From the NCBI GenBank assembly GCA_963797335.1, contig CAWCOU010000006.1:760483-824482 (forward strand): DNA of 64,000 nt, read 5' to 3'. Positions 13,748 through 60,260 of this stretch are shown here, in pieces (the first letter of the stretch is position 1; each line of letters opens with the position of its first letter). The position numbers were made by a program, and so were the translations under genes. This DNA comes from an uncultured Gammaproteobacteria bacterium. Its GTDB lineage: Bacteria; Pseudomonadota; Gammaproteobacteria; JAURND01. The notes under the pieces were generated by a model. That model saw only the letters and a list, made by a program, of their open reading frames with translations. It had not been told where the DNA came from and searched no databases.

Positions 13748-13774
13748 TACCCCCCTCTCTCCCACTCTATGGCT

Positions 13775-14060
13775 AGGGTATGCCCACATCTTTCTCAGCC
13801 AGCTGTGAATGAATATTAGATTAGGGGTTAGCACTGTACGCCCCCTCTCCCGCGCGAGGGGCTTGAATAAAGGCTCTGAACTTGTTCGCGGGAGAGGGTT
13901 GGGGAGAGGGCGAATGGAAGCGCGCGACTTTACCCTCTCCCCTAACCCTCTCCCGCGAATAGGTTTGCAGCTTTTGCCCAAACTTCTCGCGCGGGAGAGG
14001 GGGTTTACAGTGCTAATCGTTAATCGAGTGCCTACTCACAGTTGACTAAAGAGAAGAGGG
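13775..14060. repeat. Repeat family F1 copy 1: ~290-bp nested palindromic MITE-like element filling the convergent leuS/pnp gap
   Basis: Outer arms ttagcactgtacgccccctctcccgcgcgagggg / cctctcgcgcgggagagggggtttacagtgctaa, inner arms ttcgcgggagagggttggggagagggcg / ccctctcccctaaccctctcccgcgaa, and terminal agggtatgc.cacatcttt...cag.caact.tga motifs. Near-identical copies at 26184-26480 and 57426-57721. Confidence 0.8.
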
Positions 14061-16621: not shown

Positions 16622-16758
16622 AAAATTCCCCTTTGTGGTGTGAACCGGCACCGCTGTCATGTGCAGGAACCGGTGGTTATTGGGTAAAAGTAAACGTGGA
16701 AGGGTATACTGCTCGGCGATAAATAGCAAGCCAGTCTATCACTGTGCGTTCTGAGAGA

Positions 16759-16905
16759 GGTGCCACTCCACGCATGAAGTATCCCAGGGGCTGGCTGCAA
16801 ACACGCATAAATACGTCCATCGTAGCTCCCTAATTCCTCCCTGAATTAGAGGGTTTGCATCCAGCCCCTGGGATACTTCATGCTTACTTGGGCAGAACAC
16901 CCGTT
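16759..16905. repeat. Repeat family F3 copy (palindrome catgaagtatcccaggggctggctgca ... tgcatccagcccctgggatacttcatg)
   Basis: Inverted arms seen directly. Copies at 42134-42320 and 43879-44078. Confidence 0.75.
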
Positions 16906-26115: not shown

Positions 26116-26183
26116 AACACCCATCGTCATTGGAGCAGGGATTGTTGCGCTGATCAAAAACTCCTTCTCCCCTTTTGTGGGCT

Positions 26184-26480
26184 AAGGGGTATGCACTCAT
26201 CTTTTTCAGTCAACTATGAATAGTCACCGGATTAACGATTAGCACTGTAAGCCCCCTCTCCCGCGCGAGGAGTTTGGGCAAAAGCTGCAAACCTATTCGC
26301 GGGAGAGGGTTGGGGGAGAGGGTAAAGTCTCGCGCTATCCCTTCGCCCTCTCCCCAACCCTCTCCCGCGAACAAGTTCAGAGCCTTTATTCAAGCCCCTC
26401 GCGCGGGAGAGGGGCTTACAGTGCTAAACCCTAATCTAATACTCACTCACAGCTGGCTGAACAGATGCGGTCAACTTATC
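26184..26480. repeat. Repeat family F1 copy 2, inverted relative to copy 1
   Basis: Near-identical nested palindrome (see copy 1); between gloB and mltD. Confidence 0.8.
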
Positions 26481-28814: not shown

Positions 28815-28903
28815 ACCCCTCATCCGCCTTCGGCACCTTCTCCCACAGGGGGAGAAGGAATTATTTTCTTAAGTTGACGCCTATGCCCACAAGGGGAGAA
28901 GGA
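28815..28903. repeat. Repeat family F5 copy (two short hairpins cttctcccacagggggagaag and cccacaaggggagaagg)
   Basis: cccctcatccgccttcggcaccttctcccacagggggagaaggaattattttcttaagttgacgcctatgcccacaaggggagaaggatc. Copies at 49025-49097 and 60154-60260, fragments at ~26513 and ~45255. Confidence 0.7.
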
Positions 28904-40238: not shown

Positions 40239-42038
40239 TTAATCCTTTTGATCCACTTTTAACACCGCTAAAAATGCTTCCTGGGGAATCTCGACCCTGC
40301 CTACCTGCTTCATGCGTTTCTTACCTGCTTTCTGCTTCTCCAACAATTTACGCTTACGGGTAATATCGCCGCCGTAACATTTCGCGGTCACGTTTTTGCG
40401 CAGGGCTTTTACCGTAGAACGGGCGATAATTTGCGCACCAATCGCTGCTTGAATGGCGACATCGAACATTTGTCGAGGAATAATGCCCTGCATACGCTCA
40501 ACTAACGCCCTACCCCGTTGCTGGGCTTTGTCGCGGTGGACGATGTTGACGAGGGCGTCTACTTTTTCGCCATTAATCAGAATATCCAGCTTCACTAAGG
40601 GCGCTGCCTGGAAATGTTTAAATGAATAATCTAAGGAGGCGTAGCCTCGGCTGATCGATTTCAAGCGATCAAAAAAATCCAAGACCACTTCGCTCATTGG
40701 TATCTCGTAGGTTAACGCTGCTTGTCGACCGGCGTAAAGCAGGTTTTTTTGTACGCCACGGCGTTCAACGCATAAGGTCATGACATTGCCTAAATATTCG
40801 GGCGGAACGAGGACATTGACTTGAGCAATGGGTTCGCGCGTCTCGGCTATTTCCGAGGGGCCCGGTAGTTTGGCGGGATTATCAACGTACTGGACCTCGC
40901 CTTTATGCGTCAGTATTTCATAAATCACGGTGGGAGCGGTGGTGATTAAGTCCAGCTGATATTCCCGCTCCAGCCGCTCTTGGACGATTTCCATATGCAG
41001 CATGCCGAGAAAACCACAACGAAAGCCAAAACCCAAAGCTTCCGAGGTTTCGGGTTCGTAAAACAAGGCGGCGTCATTTAAGCGCAATTTGGCCAGTGCG
41101 TCCCGGAAGTCTTCGTAATCTTCAGCGTTGATAGGAAATAATCCCGCGAATACTTGGGGCTTGACGCGTTGAAAGCCAGGTAAGGGTTGTGACGCGGGGT
41201 GAACGGCATGGGTTAAGGTGTCACCCACTGGTGCGCCGTTTACTTCTTTGATGCCTGCGATGACATAGCCTACTTCACCGGCATGCAATACGCCGGTGCT
41301 TTGCCGCTTGGGCGTAAAGATACCGACTTGATCGACTTGATATGATCGGTTGGTTGACATCACCAGCATTTTTTCGCCAGCTTTCAGCACGCCTTGCTTT
41401 ACTCGCACTAGGGAAACCACGCCTAGGTAGCTGTCGAACCATGAATCAATAATCAAGGCTTGCAAGGGTGCTTTATCTTCGCCTTGGGGTGGTGGTACTA
41501 ATGCGACTAATTGTTCCAACAAATCTTCAATGCCTAATCCGGTTTTGGCGCTGATCGGTAAGGCGTGGTGGGATTCTATGCCAATGATATCTTCAATTTC
41601 TTGAATGACTTTGTCGGGGTCGGCTTGTGGTAGGTCCATTTTATTTAGGACGGGGATGACTTCTAGTCCTTGTTCTATGGCGGTGTAACAAACAGCAACG
41701 GTTTGGGCTTCTACTCCTTGTGCGGCGTCGACGACGAGTAGGGCGCCTTCGCAGGCGGATAAGGAGCGTGATACTTCGTAGGAGAAGTCGACGTGTCCGG
41801 GGGTGTCGATGAAGTTTAATTGGTAGGTTTGGCCGTTTTTGGCTTGGTAGTTTAGGGTGACGCTTTGGGCTTTGATGGTGATGCCGCGTTCGCGTTCGAG
41901 GTCCATGGAGTCGAGTACTTGTTCGCTCATTTCACGCGCTGACAGGCCGCCGCAAAGTTGGATAAAACGATCGGCTAATGTCGATTTACCATGGTCTATA
42001 TGTGCAATTATGGAGAAGTTACGGATATTTTTTATCAT
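40239..42038 (-). CDS. lepA: Elongation factor 4 (LepA)
   Basis: 599 aa, GTPase motifs AHIDHGKST and DTPGHVDF, LepA C-terminal domain. Confidence 0.96.
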
Positions 42039-42133
42039 GTGGCTGGGGAGTATAGCTTACCGCGGTATAATACAGCAATTATCGTCGCTTATATCTTCAG
42101 TGCTGTCTCTTTAAATAGTGGGTTCTGAAAGGG

Positions 42134-42320
42134 GAGCCAGCTCGCGCATGAAATATTGCTCAAGCTCCGTGCTACATATAGCAGGAGCCAGTTCGCGCAT
42201 GAAGTATCCCAGGGGCTGGCTGCAGACACGCATAAATACATCCATCGTAGCTCCCGTGTCATCCATGAATTAGAGGGTCTGCAGCCAGCACCTGGGATAC
42301 TTCATGCTTACTTGGGCAGT
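42134..42320. repeat. Repeat family F3 copy (left flank of the sixA cassette), with two leader direct repeats gagccag[c/t]tcgcgcatgaa
   Basis: catgaagtatcccaggggctggctgcagac...gtctgcagccagcacctgggatacttcatg. Confidence 0.75.
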
Positions 42321-42328
42321 ACATCTCA

Positions 42329-42470
42329 CCCGTCATTGCGAACGAATCACACGTCATTGCGAGCGAAGCGTGGCAATCTCCAGAGGGTTTCCGCCTCGTT
42401 TCGATTGCCATATTGCGCTCACAAAACGAAAAACTTGTCTTTTATTCTTAAAATACGGTGCAAGTTGTTA
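42329..42470. repeat. Repeat family F4, single copy plus a partial (core cgtcattgcgagcgaagcgtggcaatctccag...gattgccat)
   Basis: Reverse complement of the 110-bp unit triplicated at 43530-43875. Confidence 0.75.
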
Positions 42471-42590
42471 CTCTTGATGATTAGCCTTCCTTAATCCTTA
42501 ATGGGGCGGCCTGTGCTAGTGGTTGAAATATAGTGTGTGATGAGGGATTATGAAGCTGCTGGGGGAAGGGCCTTAAGGAGTTTAAGTAAG

Positions 42591-43064
42591 ATGAAACTTT
42601 ATTTAATCCGTCATGGCGATGCGGTTTCTAGCTTTGAAGATTCGCAACGGCCTTTAAGTGAGACAGGGGTCTTGCAAGTGACTCGGTTGGCGCAGGAGCT
42701 GTCTCGGCAGGGCATGGCAGCGGCTCAGTTATATCATAGCGGTATATTACGAGCAGAACAAACGGGGGGCATTTTGCAGCAAATTCTACAGATACCGGTG
42801 ATGGAAAAACTACCGTTTTTACAACCGGAATCTGAAGTGGAACCCGTTTTGCAAAACATGATGACCTGGACTGACGACACAGTCCTGGTTAGCCATCTAC
42901 CTTATTTACCGCAGTTATTATGGAACTTAGTTGGCGAAGCCAGCGCACAAATTGTATTTCAACCCGCCACCGGTGTTTGTTTGGATAATCCAAATTGGGG
43001 TAAATCCTCAGCCGAGCACTCCGCCTCGTCTCAATGGCAAATCAGCGAGGTGCTAACCGGATGA
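42591..43064 (+). CDS. sixA: Phosphohistidine phosphatase SixA
   Basis: 157 aa from MKLYLIRHGDA (histidine phosphatase RHG motif). AAGGAG lies 10 nt upstream. The ORF-track start at 42537 adds 18 aa. Confidence 0.8.
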   Translation: MKLYLIRHGDAVSSFEDSQRPLSETGVLQVTRLAQELSRQGMAAAQLYHSGILRAEQTGGILQQILQIPVMEKLPFLQPESEVEPVLQNMMTWTDDTVLVSHLPYLPQLLWNLVGEASAQIVFQPATGVCLDNPNWGKSSAEHSASSQWQISEVLTG

Positions 43065-43510
43065 GTATCGCACCGCAGTTAACACTTCGTCCTTCACGTT
43101 GCTATGTCTGCATACTCAGTCTTATTTATACCGGTGCCTTGGTTTGTTTATGTATAGCCGCAGCTCCTCTGGCACTAAAAATACCAGCCGCGTTGCTTTT
43201 GCTATGCCTGGCTAAGCAACATATCTATGATCGCAGTTTATTGCGCCATGCGCAGGCAATTATAGATTTGCACGCCGACCAAAACGGCATCTGGCATTTA
43301 TACAAACGCAATGAAACCGATGGTCAACAAGCCACCTTATCCGGTACCAGTGTCGTCACACCATGGTTTGTCGTGTTACATTTCCAACCGCGAACAACCC
43401 CGATCGTTATTTGGTTTGACAGCCTCGACACCACCACCTTCCGCCGTTTAAGGGTATACCTACGCACAACTTCTTCTCTGGCTACCCCACTGAGGAAGGC
43501 TAATCATTAA
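43061..43510 (+). CDS. Inner membrane protein, YgfX/CptA-like (DUF1434 family)
   Basis: Two N-terminal TM helices then a soluble domain ending VIWFDSLDTTTFRRLRVYL (cf. E. coli YgfX LWLAADSMDEAEWRDLRRILL). The ATG overlaps the sixA stop (ATGA). Confidence 0.45.
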   Translation: MSIAPQLTLRPSRCYVCILSLIYTGALVCLCIAAAPLALKIPAALLLLCLAKQHIYDRSLLRHAQAIIDLHADQNGIWHLYKRNETDGQQATLSGTSVVTPWFVVLHFQPRTTPIVIWFDSLDTTTFRRLRVYLRTTSSLATPLRKANH

Positions 43511-43529
43511 GTGTAACTACTTGCACCCT

Positions 43530-43875
43530 ATTTTAAGAAAGAAAAGACGAGTTTTTCGTCTCGTGGGCGAAGCATGGCAATCCAAACGAGGCGGAAACCC
43601 CCTGGAGATTGCCGCGCTTCGCTCGCAATGACGAGTGAGGTATTTTAAGAAATAAGACGAGTTTGTTGTCTTGTGAGCGCCGCGTGGCAATCCAAACGAG
43701 GCGGAAACTCCCTGGAGATTGCCGCGCTTCGCTCGCAATGACGAGTGAGGTATTTTAAGAAATAAGACGAGTTTGTTGTCTTGTGAGCGCCGCGTGGCAA
43801 TCCAAACGAGGAGGAAACTCCCTGGAGATTGCCGCGCTTCGCTCGCAATGACGGGTGATTCGCTCATAATGACGT
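43530..43875. repeat. Tandem array of three 110-bp F4 units plus a partial fourth, inverted relative to 42329-42470
   Basis: Unit ggtattttaagaaataagacgagtttgttgtcttgtgagcgccgcgtggcaatccaaacgaggcggaaactccctggagattgccgcgcttcgctcgcaatgacgagtga, period 110. Confidence 0.85.
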
Positions 43876-43878
43876 GTA

Positions 43879-44078
43879 GGATGTACTGCCCAAGTAAGCA
43901 TGAAGTATCCCAGGGGCTGGCTGCAGACCTTCTAATTCAGGGATGACACGAGAGCAACATGGATCGTATTCATGCGTGTCTGCAGCCAGCCCCTGGGATA
44001 CTTCATGCGTGAGGTGGCTCCTGCTATATGTAGCACGAACCCGAAGAAGGATGGTTCATGTGCGAGGTGGCACCTCTT
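43879..44078. repeat. Repeat family F3 copy (right flank of the sixA cassette), inverted relative to 42134-42320
   Basis: The inner asymmetric segment is the reverse complement of the left copy. The cttacttgggcag termini of both copies point towards the cargo. Confidence 0.75.
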
Positions 44079-44209
44079 TCCGAATGCAGTATTTTAATGG
44101 GACCTGATGGCAGGTATTTTTCTATTTTTTAGTGATTCTGTTTGATTTTCTATAAAGCTCAAATTACAGTTAGGGCATTTTCTCCCATTCCTTGGATGAG
44201 TAACAGCAG

Positions 44210-44839
44210 ATGAACTGGAGCCAGTTTCTTAGTTTTCTTGTATCGATGTTGGCCATCACCAACCCATTGGGCAGTCTAGCTGTCTTTCTCAGCATGACCC
44301 CGCATAAATCGGAACATGAACGCCGCAAAATCGCGCTGGACACCACACTGACCATCTTCCTAGTGCTAATCATTATCACCTGGACCGGCATCCCCATTCT
44401 AAACCTATTCGGCATCTCACTACCTGCATTCGAAATCACCGGTGGCCTTATCATTCTTTTACACGGCTTAGCCATGTTGCGCTCCAAAGAAACACCCACC
44501 TCGCAAACCGCCGGTGAATTACAAGAAAATATCTCCAACGAATCCATCGCCATCGTCCCGCTGGGCATCCCTATAATCGCTGGCCCCGGCGCCATGACCA
44601 ACACGATTATCTTCAGTCAGGAATTTTCCAGTACCACTCAGCGAATTTATATTTGTGCGGGTATCTTATTAGTGTCATTGACCCTTGGTTTTCTTTTATT
44701 TTTCGCTTCTCGGCTCGGCAAAATGATCGGCGAGAACGGTATTAAAATTGTGACGCGTATCATGGGTTTATTATTATCGGCCATCGCCATGAGCATGATC
44801 ACCACGGGCTTGAAAAATATTTTTCCAGGTTGGACTTAA
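44210..44839 (+). CDS. marC: MarC-family integral membrane protein (UPF0056)
   Basis: 209 aa, 6 TM segments, MarC N-terminal signature [21 protein letters not shown]. Confidence 0.8.
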
Positions 44840-44853
44840 ACGGGAGATGGTCG

Positions 44854-45201
44854 ATGGGGAAAAAAGATCTGGCGCGAGTGGTTGAGGCGTTGCAGTTAAA
44901 CAAGATTGAGAAGCATATTTTTTTATGCTGCGATCAACGGAAACCGAAATGTTGTTCGTTGGCAGATGGGTTGGCGTCTTGGGATTATTTGAAAAAGCGG
45001 TTGTCGGAGCTGAACCTGACACATGTTTTTCGCACCAAAGCGAATTGTCTTCGGGTTTGTGTGCAAGGGCCTATCGCGGTGGTTTATCCAGATGGGGTTT
45101 GGTATCACTCTTGTTCACCGGCGGTTTTGGAACGGATTATTCAGGAGCATTTGTGTGGCGGGAAGCCGGTGGAGGAGTATATGCTGTTTCGTCAGGTTTA
45201 G
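44854..45201 (+). CDS. Thioredoxin-like [2Fe-2S] ferredoxin
   Basis: Cys cluster [12 protein letters not shown] plus CLRVCVQGP (C-x3-C...GP), typical of thioredoxin-like 2Fe-2S ferredoxins. GGGAGA RBS before the Met at 44854. Confidence 0.6.
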
Positions 45202-45238
45202 TTCTCATCGTTTGGTAACTGCTCACCCCCCCCCCAAC

Positions 45239-45332
45239 TCCGTCGTCCCGCGACTTGTCCCATAGGCACTTGTGGGAGAAGGAGTTTTCTACTTGTGTAG
45301 ATACTAGTGGGCTTGTCCGCGGGACGACGTGC
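45239..45332. repeat. Short palindromic element cgtcgtcccgcgacttgtccc ... gggcttgtccgcgggacgacg with an F5-like fragment inside; preceded by a C10 tract
   Basis: Inverted arms seen directly. The C10 homopolymer is at 45226-45235. Confidence 0.6.
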
Positions 45333-45345
45333 AAGTAGTTTGGGT

Positions 45346-45588
45346 TTATATTTTATTTTGTATTTTTGTAATTAAGGCCTGCCATTCCGCTCGGGCGGGT
45401 TTGCTTTCTTGGTTTAACCATTGCCACAGTTGTTGATCCGTTTCGTTGAGCAGCTCACTGAACCATTGTTTTTCTTGCGAAGATAACTGCTGGTATTGCT
45501 GATCTAAAAACCGTTCTAATAAAACATCCAGTTCCAAGAGACCGCGGCGACATCGCCAGCGTATTTTAGAAAAATCCGTCTCGCTCAT
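45346..45588 (-). CDS. sdhE: FAD assembly factor SdhE (YgfY/CptB)
   Basis: 80 aa from MSETDFSKIRWRCRRGLLELDVLLERF. The RGxxE motif is the SdhE hallmark. Confidence 0.85.
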   Translation of the reverse strand: MSETDFSKIRWRCRRGLLELDVLLERFLDQQYQQLSSQEKQWFSELLNETDQQLWQWLNQESKPARAEWQALITKIQNKI

Positions 45589-45590
45589 GG

Positions 45591-46214
45591 TCAACGAACT
45601 AGATAGGCTTGGCAACGGATCAGTTGGTTCTGATACCGTAAGGCTCGAGTCGATACTTTATGGGCCACGCGTATCAGCCAGGGTTTTTTCAAATACGTGC
45701 GTTTAGAATAACCGCCAATTCCTTCATGGTATGCTAAATACAACGCATAGGGGTTATTGACTAATATGTTGGCTTGCAAATGCGCCTGGTGACTATACCA
45801 GCCAATAAAATCCGTCGCAGCGGCGAAATCATGGCGCTTGCCATCGCCATTGCCTGTTTTGAGTTGATATTCTTTCCAGGTATTTTTCAACGCTTGAGAA
45901 TAACCATACGCAGACGTGGGCCGTTTCCAGGGAATAATCCACAATAATTTCTTGCGCGGCGGCGCGGCGCGGGCACTGAAAGAAGATTCTTGATTGATAA
46001 TGGACATTTGCACCGCAACCGGCACACCCCAGCGTGTTTCACATTGTTTGGCGTCGCGATACCAATCGGGGTATTGCATAAACACGCTGCAAATGTTTTC
46101 GACATGGTCGGGACGCGGGCGCGTGGCGCAGCCCAGCAGCACTAGGAATCCAATCGCGAGGATGGTGATTAGCGTTTTTTTCACTGATAGCCTACCTTTA
46201 CTTTTGGGGGTCAA
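45591..46214 (-). CDS. Lipoprotein with a lytic transglycosylase (SLT)-like domain
   Basis: Lipobox LLGC and a putative catalytic NQESSF...SAYGYSQ region. A 2-nt gap to sdhE suggests an operon. Confidence 0.4.
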   Translation of the reverse strand: MTPKSKGRLSVKKTLITILAIGFLVLLGCATRPRPDHVENICSVFMQYPDWYRDAKQCETRWGVPVAVQMSIINQESSFSARAAPPRKKLLWIIPWKRPTSAYGYSQALKNTWKEYQLKTGNGDGKRHDFAAATDFIGWYSHQAHLQANILVNNPYALYLAYHEGIGGYSKRTYLKKPWLIRVAHKVSTRALRYQNQLIRCQAYLVR

Positions 46215-49024: not shown

Positions 49025-49097
49025 CTCCTTCTCCCCTTGTGGGAGAAGGATTTTTTTTCTTAAGTTGGCGCCTATGCCCACAAGGAGAGAAGGAGTA
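49025..49097. repeat. Repeat family F5 copy between dnaB and rplI
   Basis: cttctccccttgtgggagaaggattttttttcttaagttggcgcctatgcccacaaggagagaagga. Confidence 0.7.
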
Positions 49098-57383: not shown

Positions 57384-57425
57384 AAAGTATTCTCGATCAG
57401 AAAATCCCTTTCTCCCTCAAGGGCC

Positions 57426-57721
57426 AGGGTATACACACATCTTTTTTAGCCAACTATGAGTAGGCACCGGATTAATAATTAGCACTGTAAACTCCCTCTC
57501 CCGCGCGAGAAGTTTGGACAAAAGTTGCAAACCTATTCGCGGGAGAGGGTTGGGGGAGAGGGTAACGTCTCGCGCTATCCATTCGCCCTCTCCCCAACCC
57601 TCTCCCGCGAACAAGTTCAGAGCCTTTATTCAAGCCCCTCGCGCGGGAGAGGGGGCCTACAGTGCTAACCCCTAATCTAATACTCACTCACAGTTGACTG
57701 AAAAAGATGTGTGCATACCCT
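57426..57721. repeat. Repeat family F1 copy 3, with both terminal inverted repeats intact
   Basis: agggtatacacacatcttttttagccaactatgag ... cacagttgactgaaaaagatgtgtgcataccct flanking the nested palindrome. Confidence 0.8.
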
Positions 57722-57753
57722 AGTCATCAAGGGAAGAAAGAGATTTCCGTGGT

Positions 57754-60153: not shown

Positions 60154-60260
60154 CTAATTTTTACCCCTCATCCGCCCTCACGGGCACCTTCTCCCACAGG
60201 GGGAGAAGGAAAATATTTAGAAAATTTGAATTATTTAACGCCCCCACAAGGGAAGGGGGG
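60154..60260. repeat. Repeat family F5 copy (diverged) in the folB upstream region
   Basis: acccctcatccgccctcacgggcaccttctcccacagggggagaagga ... cgcccccacaagggaagggggg. Confidence 0.65.

What the first reader, a model, noticed from the sequence alone, without database searches (positions are those of the whole stretch)
42134..44078. Two-gene cassette (sixA plus a CptA/YgfX-like gene) symmetrically flanked by inverted composite MITE arrays
The left flank is [F3 42134-42320][F4 42329-42470]. The right flank is the mirror image, [F4 x3 in tandem 43530-43875][F3 43879-44078], with both families inverted. The asymmetric inner segment of F3 and the cttacttgggcag ends show that the two flanks face each other. 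Between them lie only sixA and an overlapping membrane protein gene. This looks like a pseudo-compound transposon, or a recombination/inversion-prone module. The flanking hairpin arrays could also insulate the cassette transcriptionally. I have not seen such a symmetric MITE-bracketed cargo described for sixA.
Basis: seen in the sequence. Interest (0 to 1): 0.62.

Follow-up and report, generated by a model that had tools for sequence, protein, structure and literature searches.

The report
Repeat-bounded inversion of sixA–cptA gene pair
In this uncultured gammaproteobacterium, two native genes (sixA and a CptA/YgfX-like gene) have been flipped in place relative to all related genomes examined, and each breakpoint carries a mirror-image copy of one ~390-base hairpin-repeat block; this is a clear but fairly ordinary repeat-associated inversion, not a mobile cargo cassette.

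Summary
Inverted arms at 42105-42490 and 43493-44107 are 86.5% identical over about 392 aligned nt. The right arm has three tandem 110-nt F4 units. Only sixA (TIGR00249) and an overlapping Cpta_toxin-family gene lie between the arms.

The main new result is comparative. In five relatives (LepA 86-95% identical) cptA lies just upstream of lepA on the same strand. The three closest read marC(-) | sixA(+) cptA(+) lepA(+), with intergenic spacers of 72-190 nt and no F3 or F4. In the window the flanks align to the nearest relative in one orientation and the cassette in the other. So the cassette is inverted at its native locus, and both breakpoints lie in the repeat blocks.

The two blocks are copies of each other. 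They share a 51-nt internal duplication, the same F3-F4 junction, a 21-nt half-unit and a ~40-50-nt inner piece (J) that encodes the last codons of cptA. The solo F3 at 16.8 kb has none of these.

I read this as a fixed, fairly old inversion with an inverted duplication of breakpoint DNA, made in one copy-and-invert step or by duplication followed by recombination. The compound-transposon reading is refuted. A reversible switch is unlikely but was not tested. The orientation rests on the assembly across the F3 hairpin.

The parts
42039..42082 (-). Native lepA-proximal upstream DNA, outside the inversion. It includes a block conserved with the nearest relative (AATTGCTGT...GCTATACT...CCAC-ATG).
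   Evidence: blastn to L002 1434-1475 in minus orientation. Local alignment score 42 against a shuffle maximum of 34, 0 of 2000 shuffles.
42105..42323 (.). Left F3 copy. It is a hairpin repeat with 31-nt arms at 42197-42227 and 42277-42307. It carries a 51-nt internal partial duplication (42133-42156 repeated at 42184-42207) that the right copy also has and the solo copy lacks.
   Evidence: -39.8 kcal/mol, z -8.2; F3 core left vs right 93.6%
42324..42452 (.). Left F4 copy: a 21-nt half-unit (42326-42346) followed by one ~106-nt unit. The orientation is opposite to the right array.
   Evidence: I2, I3, D5; 86-89% to the right units
42453..42490 (.). Left inner end of the inverted repeat (J*). 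It mirrors the DNA at and just after the 3' end of cptA on the right side.
   Evidence: pair I4 (42440-42491 vs 43493-43544, 52 nt, 88%)
42490..42590 (+). Native sixA upstream region, carried inside the inverted segment. It holds a promoter-like TTGAAA-17-GATTAT at 42523-42551 that is conserved in L002 as TTGAAA-17-GATCAT.
   Evidence: (score 37, 14 of 2000 shuffles), (sequences printed)
42591..43064 (+). sixA (phosphohistidine phosphatase). It is now oriented opposite to lepA.
   Evidence: TIGR00249 80.9 bits, above the 74.5 cut-off; His_Phos_1; 70% aa identity to the L002 orthologue; plus-orientation blastn match to L002 523-917 while the flanks match in minus orientation
43061..43510 (+). 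CptA/YgfX-like membrane protein gene. It overlaps sixA by 4 nt. Its last ~9 codons (ATPLRKANH) extend beyond the L002 orthologue, and about the last 6 of them lie inside the J piece (43493-43531).
   Evidence: PF07254 60.3 bits; alignments with orthologues; blastn to L002 1254-1382 in plus orientation
43493..43531 (.). Right inner end of the inverted repeat (J). It is continuous with the end of the cptA coding sequence.
   Evidence: I4; J left vs right 89%
43529..43878 (.). Right F4 array: three tandem 110-nt units (u1 43529-43638, u2 43639-43748, u3 43749-43858) plus the half-unit. u2 and u3 are 98% identical, which points to a recent tandem duplication.
   Evidence: (D1)
43879..44107 (.). 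Right F3 copy, inverted relative to the left one and carrying the same internal duplication.
44139..44209 (+). Native marC-proximal upstream DNA, outside the inversion.
   Evidence: blastn to L002 410-346 in minus orientation; 0 of 2000 shuffles
16737..16902 (.). Solo F3 copy. It lacks F4, J and the 51-nt duplication. It defines F3 as a unit of its own and shows the inner F3 boundary (...GGGCAGNACA).
   Evidence: -44.5 kcal/mol, z -9.4; 90.7% to each flank copy

Best explanation
This is a fixed, derived inversion of about 1.0 kb. It flipped the native sixA-cptA transcription unit in place, between lepA and marC.

The ancestral order, written in window orientation, was lepA(-) | cptA(-) sixA(-) | marC(+). 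That makes sixA->cptA->lepA one co-directional string. A composite of two hairpin repeats (F3 + F4) lay in the cptA-lepA spacer.

The segment D = [F3-F4-J] is now present twice in mirror image, once at each breakpoint: A-D-B-C became A-D-B(inv)-D(inv)-C.

I think the duplication and the flip most likely arose in a single copy-and-invert event. Candidates are staggered breaks with fill-in, replication template switching at the F3 palindrome, or intramolecular replicative movement of the block. The alternative is an inverted duplication of D into the marC-sixA spacer, followed by RecA-type recombination between the copies. Later, F4 expanded in tandem on the right side.

Shown:
- the inversion itself;
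- the coincidence of both breakpoints with the repeat blocks;
- that the two blocks are copies of each other;
- that the relatives lack the repeats at these sites.

Inferred:
- the order and number of steps;
- the consequences. sixA-cptA, which carries its own conserved promoter-like element, is uncoupled from the lepA-lepB-rnc-era-recO string and now points toward marC. CptA has acquired a tail of about 9 residues, part of it encoded in the J piece.
For: **1. Polarity.**
- Five relatives have cptA immediately upstream of lepA on the same strand: L002 (LepA 95% identical), L003/L004 (89%), L005-L007 (89%), L009 (87%) and L011/L012 (86%).
- The three closest have marC(-) | sixA(+) cptA(+) lepA(+), with spacers of 72-190 nt.

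**2. Nucleotide level against L002**.
- lepA side: 41503-42080, minus orientation.
- marC side: 44139-44551, minus orientation.
- sixA 42591-42982 and cptA 43355-43480: plus orientation.
- Over about 25 kb of collinear synteny this is the only block with reversed orientation.

**3. Clean breakpoints.** The two halves of the marC-sixA spacer are both retained, one next to each repeat block. Together they are 172-203 nt, against 177 nt in L002.

**4. The arms are copies of each other.**
- They share the 51-nt internal duplication, an identical F3-F4 junction, the 21-nt half-unit and J. The solo F3 has none of these.
- F3 core identity is 93.6% left vs right, against 90.7% for the solo copy vs either arm.

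**5. No F3 or F4 elsewhere.**
- None in about 150 kb of relatives' DNA.
- The GTDB representative genomes gave one hit, and it shares only the generic F4 core.
- None in JGI metagenomes.

**6. Age.** The Jukes-Cantor distance between the arms is 0.149. At lepA four-fold sites the distance to L002 is 1.22. The event therefore lies on the window's own branch but is not recent.

**7. Independent contigs.** Short-read contigs from ERR11523675 match the window at 100% identity. They cover left F4/J* through sixA and cptA to J/F4u1 (L008), and right F3 to marC (L001).

**8. Precedent.**
- One-step inversion bracketed by inverted element copies: PMC4471558.
- Inversions with inverted duplications of breakpoint DNA: PMC1885836.
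- MITE-like Correia elements implicated in a gonococcal inversion: PMC3454330.
Against: - **Arm identity.** The arms are only 86.5% identical. A recent recombination between them would tend to homogenise them.
- **One step or two.** The final structure cannot tell a one-step from a two-step origin.
- **No target-site duplications.** None could be identified, because the element ends cannot be fixed to the base from three F3 copies.
- **Origin of J unresolved.** It could be native cptA-downstream DNA or part of a longer F4 element. Its similarity to the L002 cptA-lepA spacer is collinear but not significant (371 of 2000 shuffles). CptA C-terminal tails are not conserved among 7 homologues.
- **Distance of the nearest relative.** Synonymous sites are close to saturation, so no intermediate state is available.
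- **Assembly dependence.** The short-read contigs break inside the identical 31-nt F3 arms. The orientation therefore rests on the long contig's assembly across F3, and I could not check it against reads.
Confidence: 0.62

Rival explanations
1. Two-step origin with recombination still possible. The composite first became present in inverted orientation on both sides of the cassette. Ordinary RecA-dependent recombination between the arms then flipped the cassette, and could flip it back. The locus would then be a recombination-prone but unprogrammed module that may exist as two isomers in the population.
For: - Arms of about 390 nt are long enough for homologous recombination.
- They contain a perfectly identical 31-nt stretch.
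- Correia-type repeats are reported as recombination and rearrangement hotspots in Neisseria (PMC3454330, PMC2649163).
- The final structure is fully compatible with this route.
Against: - It needs an extra, unexplained event that copies a ~390-nt segment into a spacer 1.1 kb away, in inverted orientation. That segment is not a natural element: it is F3, plus F4, plus J.
- The boundaries of the duplicated segment coincide exactly with the inversion breakpoints. A one-step event predicts this; a two-step route does not.
- 13.5% divergence between the arms argues against frequent exchange or gene conversion.
Confidence: 0.25
2. Programmed invertible switch (phase variation). The arms would be recombination sites, and flipping would toggle sixA-cptA between read-through into the lepA operon and transcription toward marC.
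For: - Inverted repeats bracket a promoter-bearing unit.
- The two orientations would give different transcriptional couplings.
Against: - No recombinase or invertase lies within about 10 kb on either side. The neighbourhood is collinear with annotated relatives that carry only housekeeping genes.
- The one window-specific insertion nearby encodes a Sel1-repeat protein.
- The arms are long (390-615 nt), unequal and 13.5% diverged. Known switches use short, well-conserved repeats (general knowledge).
- No second isomer was seen, although only one sample carries this species.
Confidence: 0.04
3. Pseudo-compound transposon. Two MITE arrays would mobilise sixA-cptA as cargo, and the 1.9-kb block would have been inserted here.
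For: Its layout resembles a composite transposon: inverted repeat blocks on both sides of two genes.
Against: - sixA-cptA occupy the same position between marC and lepA in the three closest relatives, without any flanking repeats.
- SixA and CptA identities follow the LepA ranking: 70% and 57% to L002, and about 41% (SixA) and 34-39% (CptA) to the next relatives. That indicates vertical descent.
- No transposase was seen near the locus: the neighbourhood is collinear with annotated relatives that carry only housekeeping genes. The rest of the 64-kb window was not scanned.
- No target-site duplication was found, and no second copy of the block in any collection searched.
Confidence: 0.02
4. Assembly artefact. 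The true genome would have the ancestral orientation (or a mixture), and the assembler took the wrong path through the identical 31-nt F3 arms.
For: - Both independent short-read contigs end inside those arms (L001 starts at 43984, L008 at 42296).
- The link from the outer half of each F3 to its inner half is therefore not independently confirmed.
Against: - The window comes from a 1.29-Mb contig, which suggests a long-read assembly. A 140-nt hairpin is trivially spanned by long reads.
- The arms differ at 13.5% of positions, so they are easy to tell apart.
- Even in the ancestral orientation, two mirror-image copies of the composite would still flank the cassette. The repeat structure would remain and only the inversion claim would fall.
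Confidence: 0.07

Closest known systems
Inversions bracketed by inverted copies of a mobile element, made in one step by intramolecular replicative transposition (IS26/IS6 family, Tn4401; PMC4471558)
   Same: The end product has the same topology. One old and one new copy of the same sequence lie in inverse orientation at the two ends of an inverted segment. A relative carries the uninverted arrangement without the second copy.
   Different: - The duplicated unit here is a ~390-nt non-coding composite of two unrelated hairpin repeats plus J. It is not an insertion sequence with a transposase.
- The composite has no terminal inverted repeats of its own.
- The diagnostic inverted 8-bp target duplications could not be identified.
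- No candidate transposase was found.
Inversions with inverted duplications of breakpoint sequence, explained by staggered breaks (Drosophila melanogaster group; PMC1885836)
   Same: A few hundred bases at one breakpoint are found at both ends of the inverted segment in inverse orientation. Only one of the two breakpoints is duplicated. The copies then diverge by substitutions and small indels. The median duplication size there (321 bp) is similar to the ~390 nt here.
   Different: - That model was proposed for eukaryotic chromosomes repaired by end joining.
- Here the duplicated DNA is mostly repeat sequence with a strong palindrome, and the host is a bacterium. Replication template switching or palindrome-induced breakage is a more natural trigger (my inference, not tested).
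Correia repeat-enclosed elements (CREE) of Neisseria as rearrangement and inversion hotspots (PMC3454330, PMC2649163)
   Same: Both are small, transposase-less hairpin or inverted-repeat elements found between genes and implicated in chromosomal inversions. They may also affect transcription of neighbouring genes.
   Different: - CREE are a high-copy family (>100 per genome) with defined ends and TA duplications.
- F3 is seen 3 times in 64 kb, and F4 only at this locus.
- The inversion here is about 1 kb and its arms are copies of one another rather than two independent family members.
- There is no sequence similarity to CREE (Rfam and database searches).
E. coli sdhE(ygfY/cptB)-ygfX(cptA) gene pair (PMC8621075)
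   Same: The membrane protein belongs to the same Pfam family, PF07254. An Sdh5/SdhE gene lies 1.8 kb away at 45346-45615.
   Different: - In this lineage cptA is translationally coupled to sixA (4-nt overlap) and sits upstream of lepA. It is not downstream of sdhE.
- No toxin-antitoxin behaviour can be inferred.

Membership tests
Repeat-associated chromosomal inversion | The segment is in reversed orientation relative to conserved flanks when compared with outgroups | tested here: met
   Against L002 the flanks match in minus orientation and the cassette in plus. Five relatives share the opposite, ancestral orientation of cptA relative to lepA.
Repeat-associated chromosomal inversion | Homologous sequences in inverted orientation at both breakpoints | tested here: met
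   Arms 42105-42490 and 43493-44107 are 86.5% identical over 392 aligned nt. Native flanking DNA resumes within about 30 nt of the arm ends.
Inversion by intramolecular replicative transposition (IS26-type) | Matched short target-site duplications in inverse orientation, one next to each element copy | tested here: inconclusive
   The arm ends cannot be fixed to the base from three F3 copies. No convincing inverted short match was seen by eye at the new junctions around 42490 and 44107. An 8-nt direct TTAATGGG match (42497 and 44097) is not the expected pattern.
Inversion by intramolecular replicative transposition (IS26-type) | The duplicated unit is a discrete transposable element with a cognate transposase | tested here: not met
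   The unit is F3 + F4 + J. The solo copy shows that F3 alone is a separate family with its own boundary. The composite has no terminal inverted repeats. No transposase gene is evident near the locus. The whole genome was not available.
MITE (miniature inverted-repeat transposable element) | Small non-coding element with terminal inverted repeats | tested here: inconclusive
   F3 has 31-nt inverted arms, but conserved sequence extends 14-35 nt beyond them on both sides. F4 has a nested imperfect hairpin and no terminal repeats.
MITE (miniature inverted-repeat transposable element) | Many dispersed copies in the genome, presence/absence polymorphism and target-site duplications | tested here: inconclusive
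   F3 has 3 copies in 64 kb. F4 occurs only at this locus. Both are absent from the relatives' orthologous sites. No TSD could be defined. The rest of the genome could not be retrieved.
Compound (composite) transposon | Flanked cargo has moved as a unit to a new location | tested here: not met
   The cassette occupies the same marC-lepA position in L002, L003/L004 and L005-L007, which have no flanking repeats.
Programmed invertible element (site-specific inversion switch) | A dedicated recombinase gene in or near the element | tested here: not met
   About 10 kb on either side is collinear with relatives whose genes all have housekeeping Pfam assignments. The window-specific 916-aa ORF is a Sel1-type repeat protein.
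Programmed invertible element (site-specific inversion switch) | Both orientations coexist in a population | not testable with these tools
   The species was found in one sample only, and its short-read contigs break inside F3. No reads are available.
SixA phosphohistidine phosphatase (TIGR00249) | Score above the curated equivalog cut-off, and an N-terminal RHG catalytic motif | tested here: met
   80.9 bits against a cut-off of 74.5. The sequence begins MKLYLIRHGDA.
CptA/YgfX (PF07254) | Pfam gathering score met over the full-length model | tested here: met
   60.3 bits against 27.3, covering profile positions 4-132 of 133. Toxin activity and pairing with SdhE were not tested. The gene is not adjacent to sdhE here.

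The most novel reading that the evidence does not exclude
A transposase-less composite of hairpin repeats (F3 + F4) duplicated itself in inverted orientation and flipped the intervening genes in a single copy-and-invert event. The trigger would be the 31-nt-armed F3 palindrome. This would be a bacterial counterpart of the staggered-break or template-switch inversions described in eukaryotes, or the first case of MITE-like repeats behaving like IS26 in intramolecular replicative inversion. A bolder version is that the module still flips, toggling sixA-cptA between coupling to the lepA operon and coupling to marC.
Probability: 0.3. Interest if true: 0.55.

Novelty: new member of a known kind. 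Interest (0 to 1): 0.33.

Why it matters
The locus gives a clean, base-level example of how small non-coding hairpin repeats reshape gene order in a reduced, probably host-associated gammaproteobacterial genome.

- A gene string conserved in this lineage (sixA-cptA-lepA-lepB-rnc-era-recO) has been broken by a 1-kb flip.
- The flip leaves each gene's proximal upstream (promoter-like) block in place.
- Its breakpoints carry mirror copies of one composite repeat.

If the one-step reading is correct, inversion with inverted duplication of breakpoint DNA also operates in bacteria without a transposase. That mechanism is documented mainly for IS26-type elements and for Drosophila.

On the practical side, such mirror-repeat blocks break short-read assemblies. 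They can also make native genes look like mobile cargo.

Tried and rejected
1. **Census of F3 and F4 outside the window.**
   - I built one degenerate 32-nt pattern that matches both families; it finds 7 of 7 expected sites in the window.
   - GTDB representative genomes gave one hit, an alphaproteobacterial MAG that shares only the generic GTCATTGCGAGCGAAGCGCGGCAATCTCC hairpin core.
   - Two scans of JGI metagenomes gave nothing.
   - The window's own genome appears not to be retrievable.
2. **Six-frame peptide probe.** The left arm, translated in six frames, gave no hit against 5.8 billion predicted proteins. This route found no further copies.
3. **Rfam.** Nothing was found in the repeats. 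The single hit, AsrC (25 bits against a gathering score of 111), lies inside the lepA coding sequence and reflects lepA homology.
4. **Plasmid and phage collections, searched for a parent IS.** Plasmids gave none. Phages gave only the ~30-nt F4 core, in 7 unannotated faecal 'Bacteriophage sp.' contigs.
5. **Whether J is native cptA-downstream DNA.** The alignment to the L002 spacer is collinear but not significant. C-terminal tails of 7 CptA homologues are not conserved. This stays unresolved.
6. **Target-site duplications.** No convincing pattern was found.
7. **Inversion isomers.** Exact-protein look-ups of MarC and CptA found only one sample, and its contigs break in F3.
8. **Literature search for the F4 core sequence.** No paper was found.
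9. **Restoring an sdhE-ygfX operon.** I considered whether the inversion could have broken or rebuilt one, and rejected it. The relatives also have sdhE separated from cptA by marC and a ferredoxin-like ORF.
Full report

Yes. The region 42100-44110 contains two mirror-image repeat blocks.
- The repeat finder reports inverted arms 42168-42452 / 43753-44037 (285 nt, 86% complementary). A further inverted pair, 42440-42491 / 43493-44544 in register with it (reported as 42440-42491 / 43493-43544; 52 nt, 88%), extends the symmetry inward past F4.
- Tandem Repeats Finder gives a 110-nt unit x3.0 at 43529-43858.
- The 31-nt F3 arm occurs six times in the window and the 25-nt F4 core four times. Neither appeared in any of 100 shuffles.
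- F3 folds as a long hairpin: -39.8 kcal/mol with z -8.2 for the left copy, and -44.5 kcal/mol with z -9.4 for the solo copy at 16.8 kb. F4 units fold less strongly (z -2.8 to -3.9).
- A pairwise alignment of the two flanks and a three-way alignment with the solo F3 show that the symmetry runs from about 42105 to 42490 on the left and from about 43493 to 44107 on the right.
- With the two extra F4 units removed, the arms are 86.5% identical over 392 aligned positions.
- Only two genes lie between the arms. sixA is 42591-43064 (TIGR00249, 80.9 bits, cut-off 74.5). A PF07254 Cpta_toxin-family gene is 43061-43510. They overlap by 4 nt.

**2. The two flanks are copies of one segment, not independent insertions.**

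The solo F3 at about 16737-16902 shows where F3 ends on its inner side (...CTTACTTGGGCAGNACA). Beyond that point its flank is unrelated to F4.

Both flank copies share four features that the solo copy lacks:
- a 51-nt internal partial duplication at the outer F3 end (42133-42156 repeated at 42184-42207, mirrored on the right);
- the same junction to F4;
- the same extra 21-nt half-unit (TCACCCGTCATTGCGAACGAA);
- the same inner piece J.

The F3 cores of the two flanks are closer to each other (93.6%) than either is to the solo copy (90.7%). On the right, F4 units 2 and 3 are 98% identical, so the tandem expansion is the most recent change.

**3. What the relatives show.**

A LepA search found a graded series of uncultured gammaproteobacterial relatives. 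I fetched their loci.
- L002 (95% LepA identity), L003/L004 (89%) and L005-L007 (89%; GCA_964386165.1 and GCA_035546635.1) all read: sdhE(+) ... ferredoxin-like ORF(-) marC(-) | sixA(+) cptA(+) lepA(+) lepB rnc era recO.
- Their marC-sixA spacers are 72-178 nt and their cptA-lepA spacers 90-190 nt, which is too short to hold the repeats.
- Two more distant relatives (L009, 87%; L011/L012, 86%) have lost sixA at this position. They still have cptA directly upstream of lepA on the same strand.
- One relative (L010) is rearranged next to a DDE transposase.

In the window, lepA is on the minus strand and marC on the plus strand, as expected for the reverse view of this locus. But sixA and cptA are on the plus strand, opposite to lepA.

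blastn against L002 makes this explicit:
- 41503-42080 matches L002 2011-1434 (minus).
- 44139-44551 matches L002 410-4 (minus).
- 42591-42982 matches L002 523-917 (plus).
- 43355-43480 matches L002 1254-1382 (plus).

Across about 25 kb of otherwise collinear sequence this is the only block in reversed orientation. The cassette is therefore native to this position and has been flipped in the window's lineage.

**4. Breakpoints.**
- On the lepA side, native DNA is recognisable up to about 42082 (0 of 2000 shuffles).
- On the marC side, it is recognisable from about 44139 (0 of 2000 shuffles).
- The native sixA upstream region starts at about 42490 (14 of 2000 shuffles).
- The two halves of the ancestral marC-sixA spacer are both present, one abutting each repeat block. 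Together they are 172-203 nt, against 177 nt in L002.
- The sixA half contains a promoter-like TTGAAA-17-GATTAT (42523-42551). L002 conserves it as TTGAAA-17-GATCAT. The cassette probably took its own promoter with it.
- The cptA ORF runs about 9 codons (ATPLRKANH) beyond the end of its L002 orthologue. About the last six of those codons lie inside J.

**5. Mechanism.**

The structure is A-D-B(inv)-D(inv)-C, where:
- A is the lepA side;
- D is F3ext-F3-F4-J;
- B is the cassette with its upstream region;
- C is the marC side.

This topology is produced in one step by intramolecular replicative transposition of IS26-type elements (PMC4471558). It is also produced by staggered breaks with fill-in, as proposed for Drosophila inversions that carry inverted duplications of breakpoint DNA (PMC1885836). 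It can arise in two steps as well: a second, inverted copy appears and the copies then recombine. Inversions involving Correia elements in Neisseria have been interpreted that way (PMC3454330, PMC2649163).

I favour a single copy-and-invert event for two reasons.
- The duplicated unit is not a natural element. It is two different families plus J, and the composite has no terminal inverted repeats.
- The ends of the duplicated unit coincide with the inversion breakpoints.

This is a parsimony argument. The final structure does not discriminate between the routes.

Three points remain open:
- The strong F3 palindrome is a plausible trigger, but that is inference.
- Target-site duplications could not be identified.
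- The origin of J is unresolved.

**6. Age and activity.**

The arm-to-arm Jukes-Cantor distance is 0.149. The distance at lepA four-fold sites between the window and L002 is 1.22. The event is therefore much younger than the split from the nearest available relative, but it is not recent. The 13.5% divergence argues against frequent exchange between the arms.

No recombinase gene lies within about 10 kb. A programmed switch is therefore unlikely. Reversibility could not be tested, because the species was found in only one sample.

**7. Caveat on assembly.**

Two independent short-read contigs from ERR11523675 are 100% identical to the window. L008 covers 42296-43627 and L001 covers 43984-45298. 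They confirm three things:
- the left-type F4/J* is joined to the sixA upstream region;
- cptA is joined to J/F4u1;
- the right-type F3 is joined to marC.

Both contigs end inside the perfectly repeated 31-nt F3 arms, so on their own they cannot fix the orientation. The orientation rests on the 1.29-Mb contig, which I could not check against reads. Even if the orientation were wrong, the mirror-image duplicated blocks would still be there.

**8. Distribution of the repeats.**
- F3 and F4 were not found in about 150 kb of relatives' DNA.
- A combined pattern found nothing relevant in one genome per GTDB species.
- JGI metagenomes gave nothing.
- Rfam gave nothing in the repeats.
- Plasmids gave nothing.
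- A six-frame peptide probe against the protein collection gave nothing.
- Only the ~30-nt F4 core hairpin (GTCATTGCGAGCGAAGCGYGGCAATCTCC) recurs. It appears in an alphaproteobacterial MAG and in seven faecal 'Bacteriophage sp.' contigs.
- A related module with a compensated stem (CGTCATCCCGAGCGAAGCGAGGGA) occurs elsewhere in the window.
- The F4 core is therefore a widespread hairpin module. F3 looks lineage-specific.

**9. Verdict.**
- The 'compound transposon with sixA cargo' part is refuted.
- The insulation idea is untested.

The kind of event, a repeat-bounded inversion, is well known. What is less usual is the small scale, the transposase-less composite arms, and the copy-and-invert signature. 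Interest is modest at 0.33.

Noticed in passing
window 31512-34262 (+): A 916-aa ORF rich in Sel1/TPR-type repeats (partial NCBIfam hits to MerG, MotX and AlgK repeat regions). It lies between the acetyltransferase gene and gltX. The orthologous spacer in relative L005 is only about 0.5 kb, so this is a lineage-specific ~3-kb insertion. It is the kind of protein often seen in host-associated bacteria.
   Followed up: partly
window 13757-14050, 26168-26461, 57400-57747: A third repeat family of large (~150-300 nt) palindromic elements. Copies are 91-99% complementary to one another (for example 13769-13918 vs 57578-57727 at 95%). It is unrelated to F3 and F4.
   Followed up: no
window 2203-2251, 5022-5155, 8730-8882: Hairpin repeats built on CACGTCATCCCGAGCGAAGCGAGGGA(C/T)C. 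The module is the same as the F4 core (CGTCATTGCGAGCGAAGCGTGGCAATC), but the stem bases are changed on both sides (TTGC/GCAA vs TCCC/GGGA). That suggests a superfamily of structured repeats.
   Followed up: partly
L013 1368-1470; phage-collection hits H1-H7: The ~30-nt F4 core hairpin occurs nearly exactly in an unrelated alphaproteobacterial MAG and in seven unannotated faecal 'Bacteriophage sp.' contigs. The module is widespread across distant taxa. A text search for the sequence found no paper.
   Followed up: partly
window 28836-28903, 49027-49094, 60161-60213; L005 21526-21563 and 3944-3975; L006 21539-21672: At least two other short repeat families are shared with the 89%-LepA relatives L005/L006, unlike F3 and F4. 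One has CCTTCTCCC...GGGAGAAGG hairpins (28836-28903, 49027-49094). The other is a ~50-nt repeat (60161-60213, 28815-28859). Matches are 89-96% identical.
   Followed up: no
window 45346-45615 (-) and 43061-43510 (+); L003, L005, L009, L011: In this lineage the CptA/YgfX-family gene is not next to sdhE, as it is in E. coli. It is translationally coupled to sixA and lies directly upstream of lepA. The cptA->lepA adjacency persists even where sixA is absent (L009, L011). sdhE lies 1.8 kb away, beyond marC and a 2Fe-2S-ferredoxin-like ORF.
   Followed up: partly
window 42990-43030 (SixA residues ~134-147): The window's SixA has an insertion of about 10 residues near its C-terminus (NPNWGKSSAE...). 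The orthologues in L002, L003 and L005 lack it.
   Followed up: no
L003 5633-7861; L010 3332-4486: Relative L003 carries a 742-aa ORF with no Pfam hit between sdhE and the ferredoxin-like ORF; the window lacks it. Relative L010 has lost the whole sixA-cptA-marC neighbourhood next to lepA and carries a DDE_Tnp_1 transposase there. The lepA-upstream region seems to be a rearrangement hotspot in this group.
   Followed up: no
window 41960-42035 (+): A sub-threshold Rfam hit to AsrC (25 bits against a gathering score of 111) lies antisense to the 5' end of lepA. It is most likely homology to the lepA coding sequence contained in that model, not an RNA gene.
   Followed up: partly
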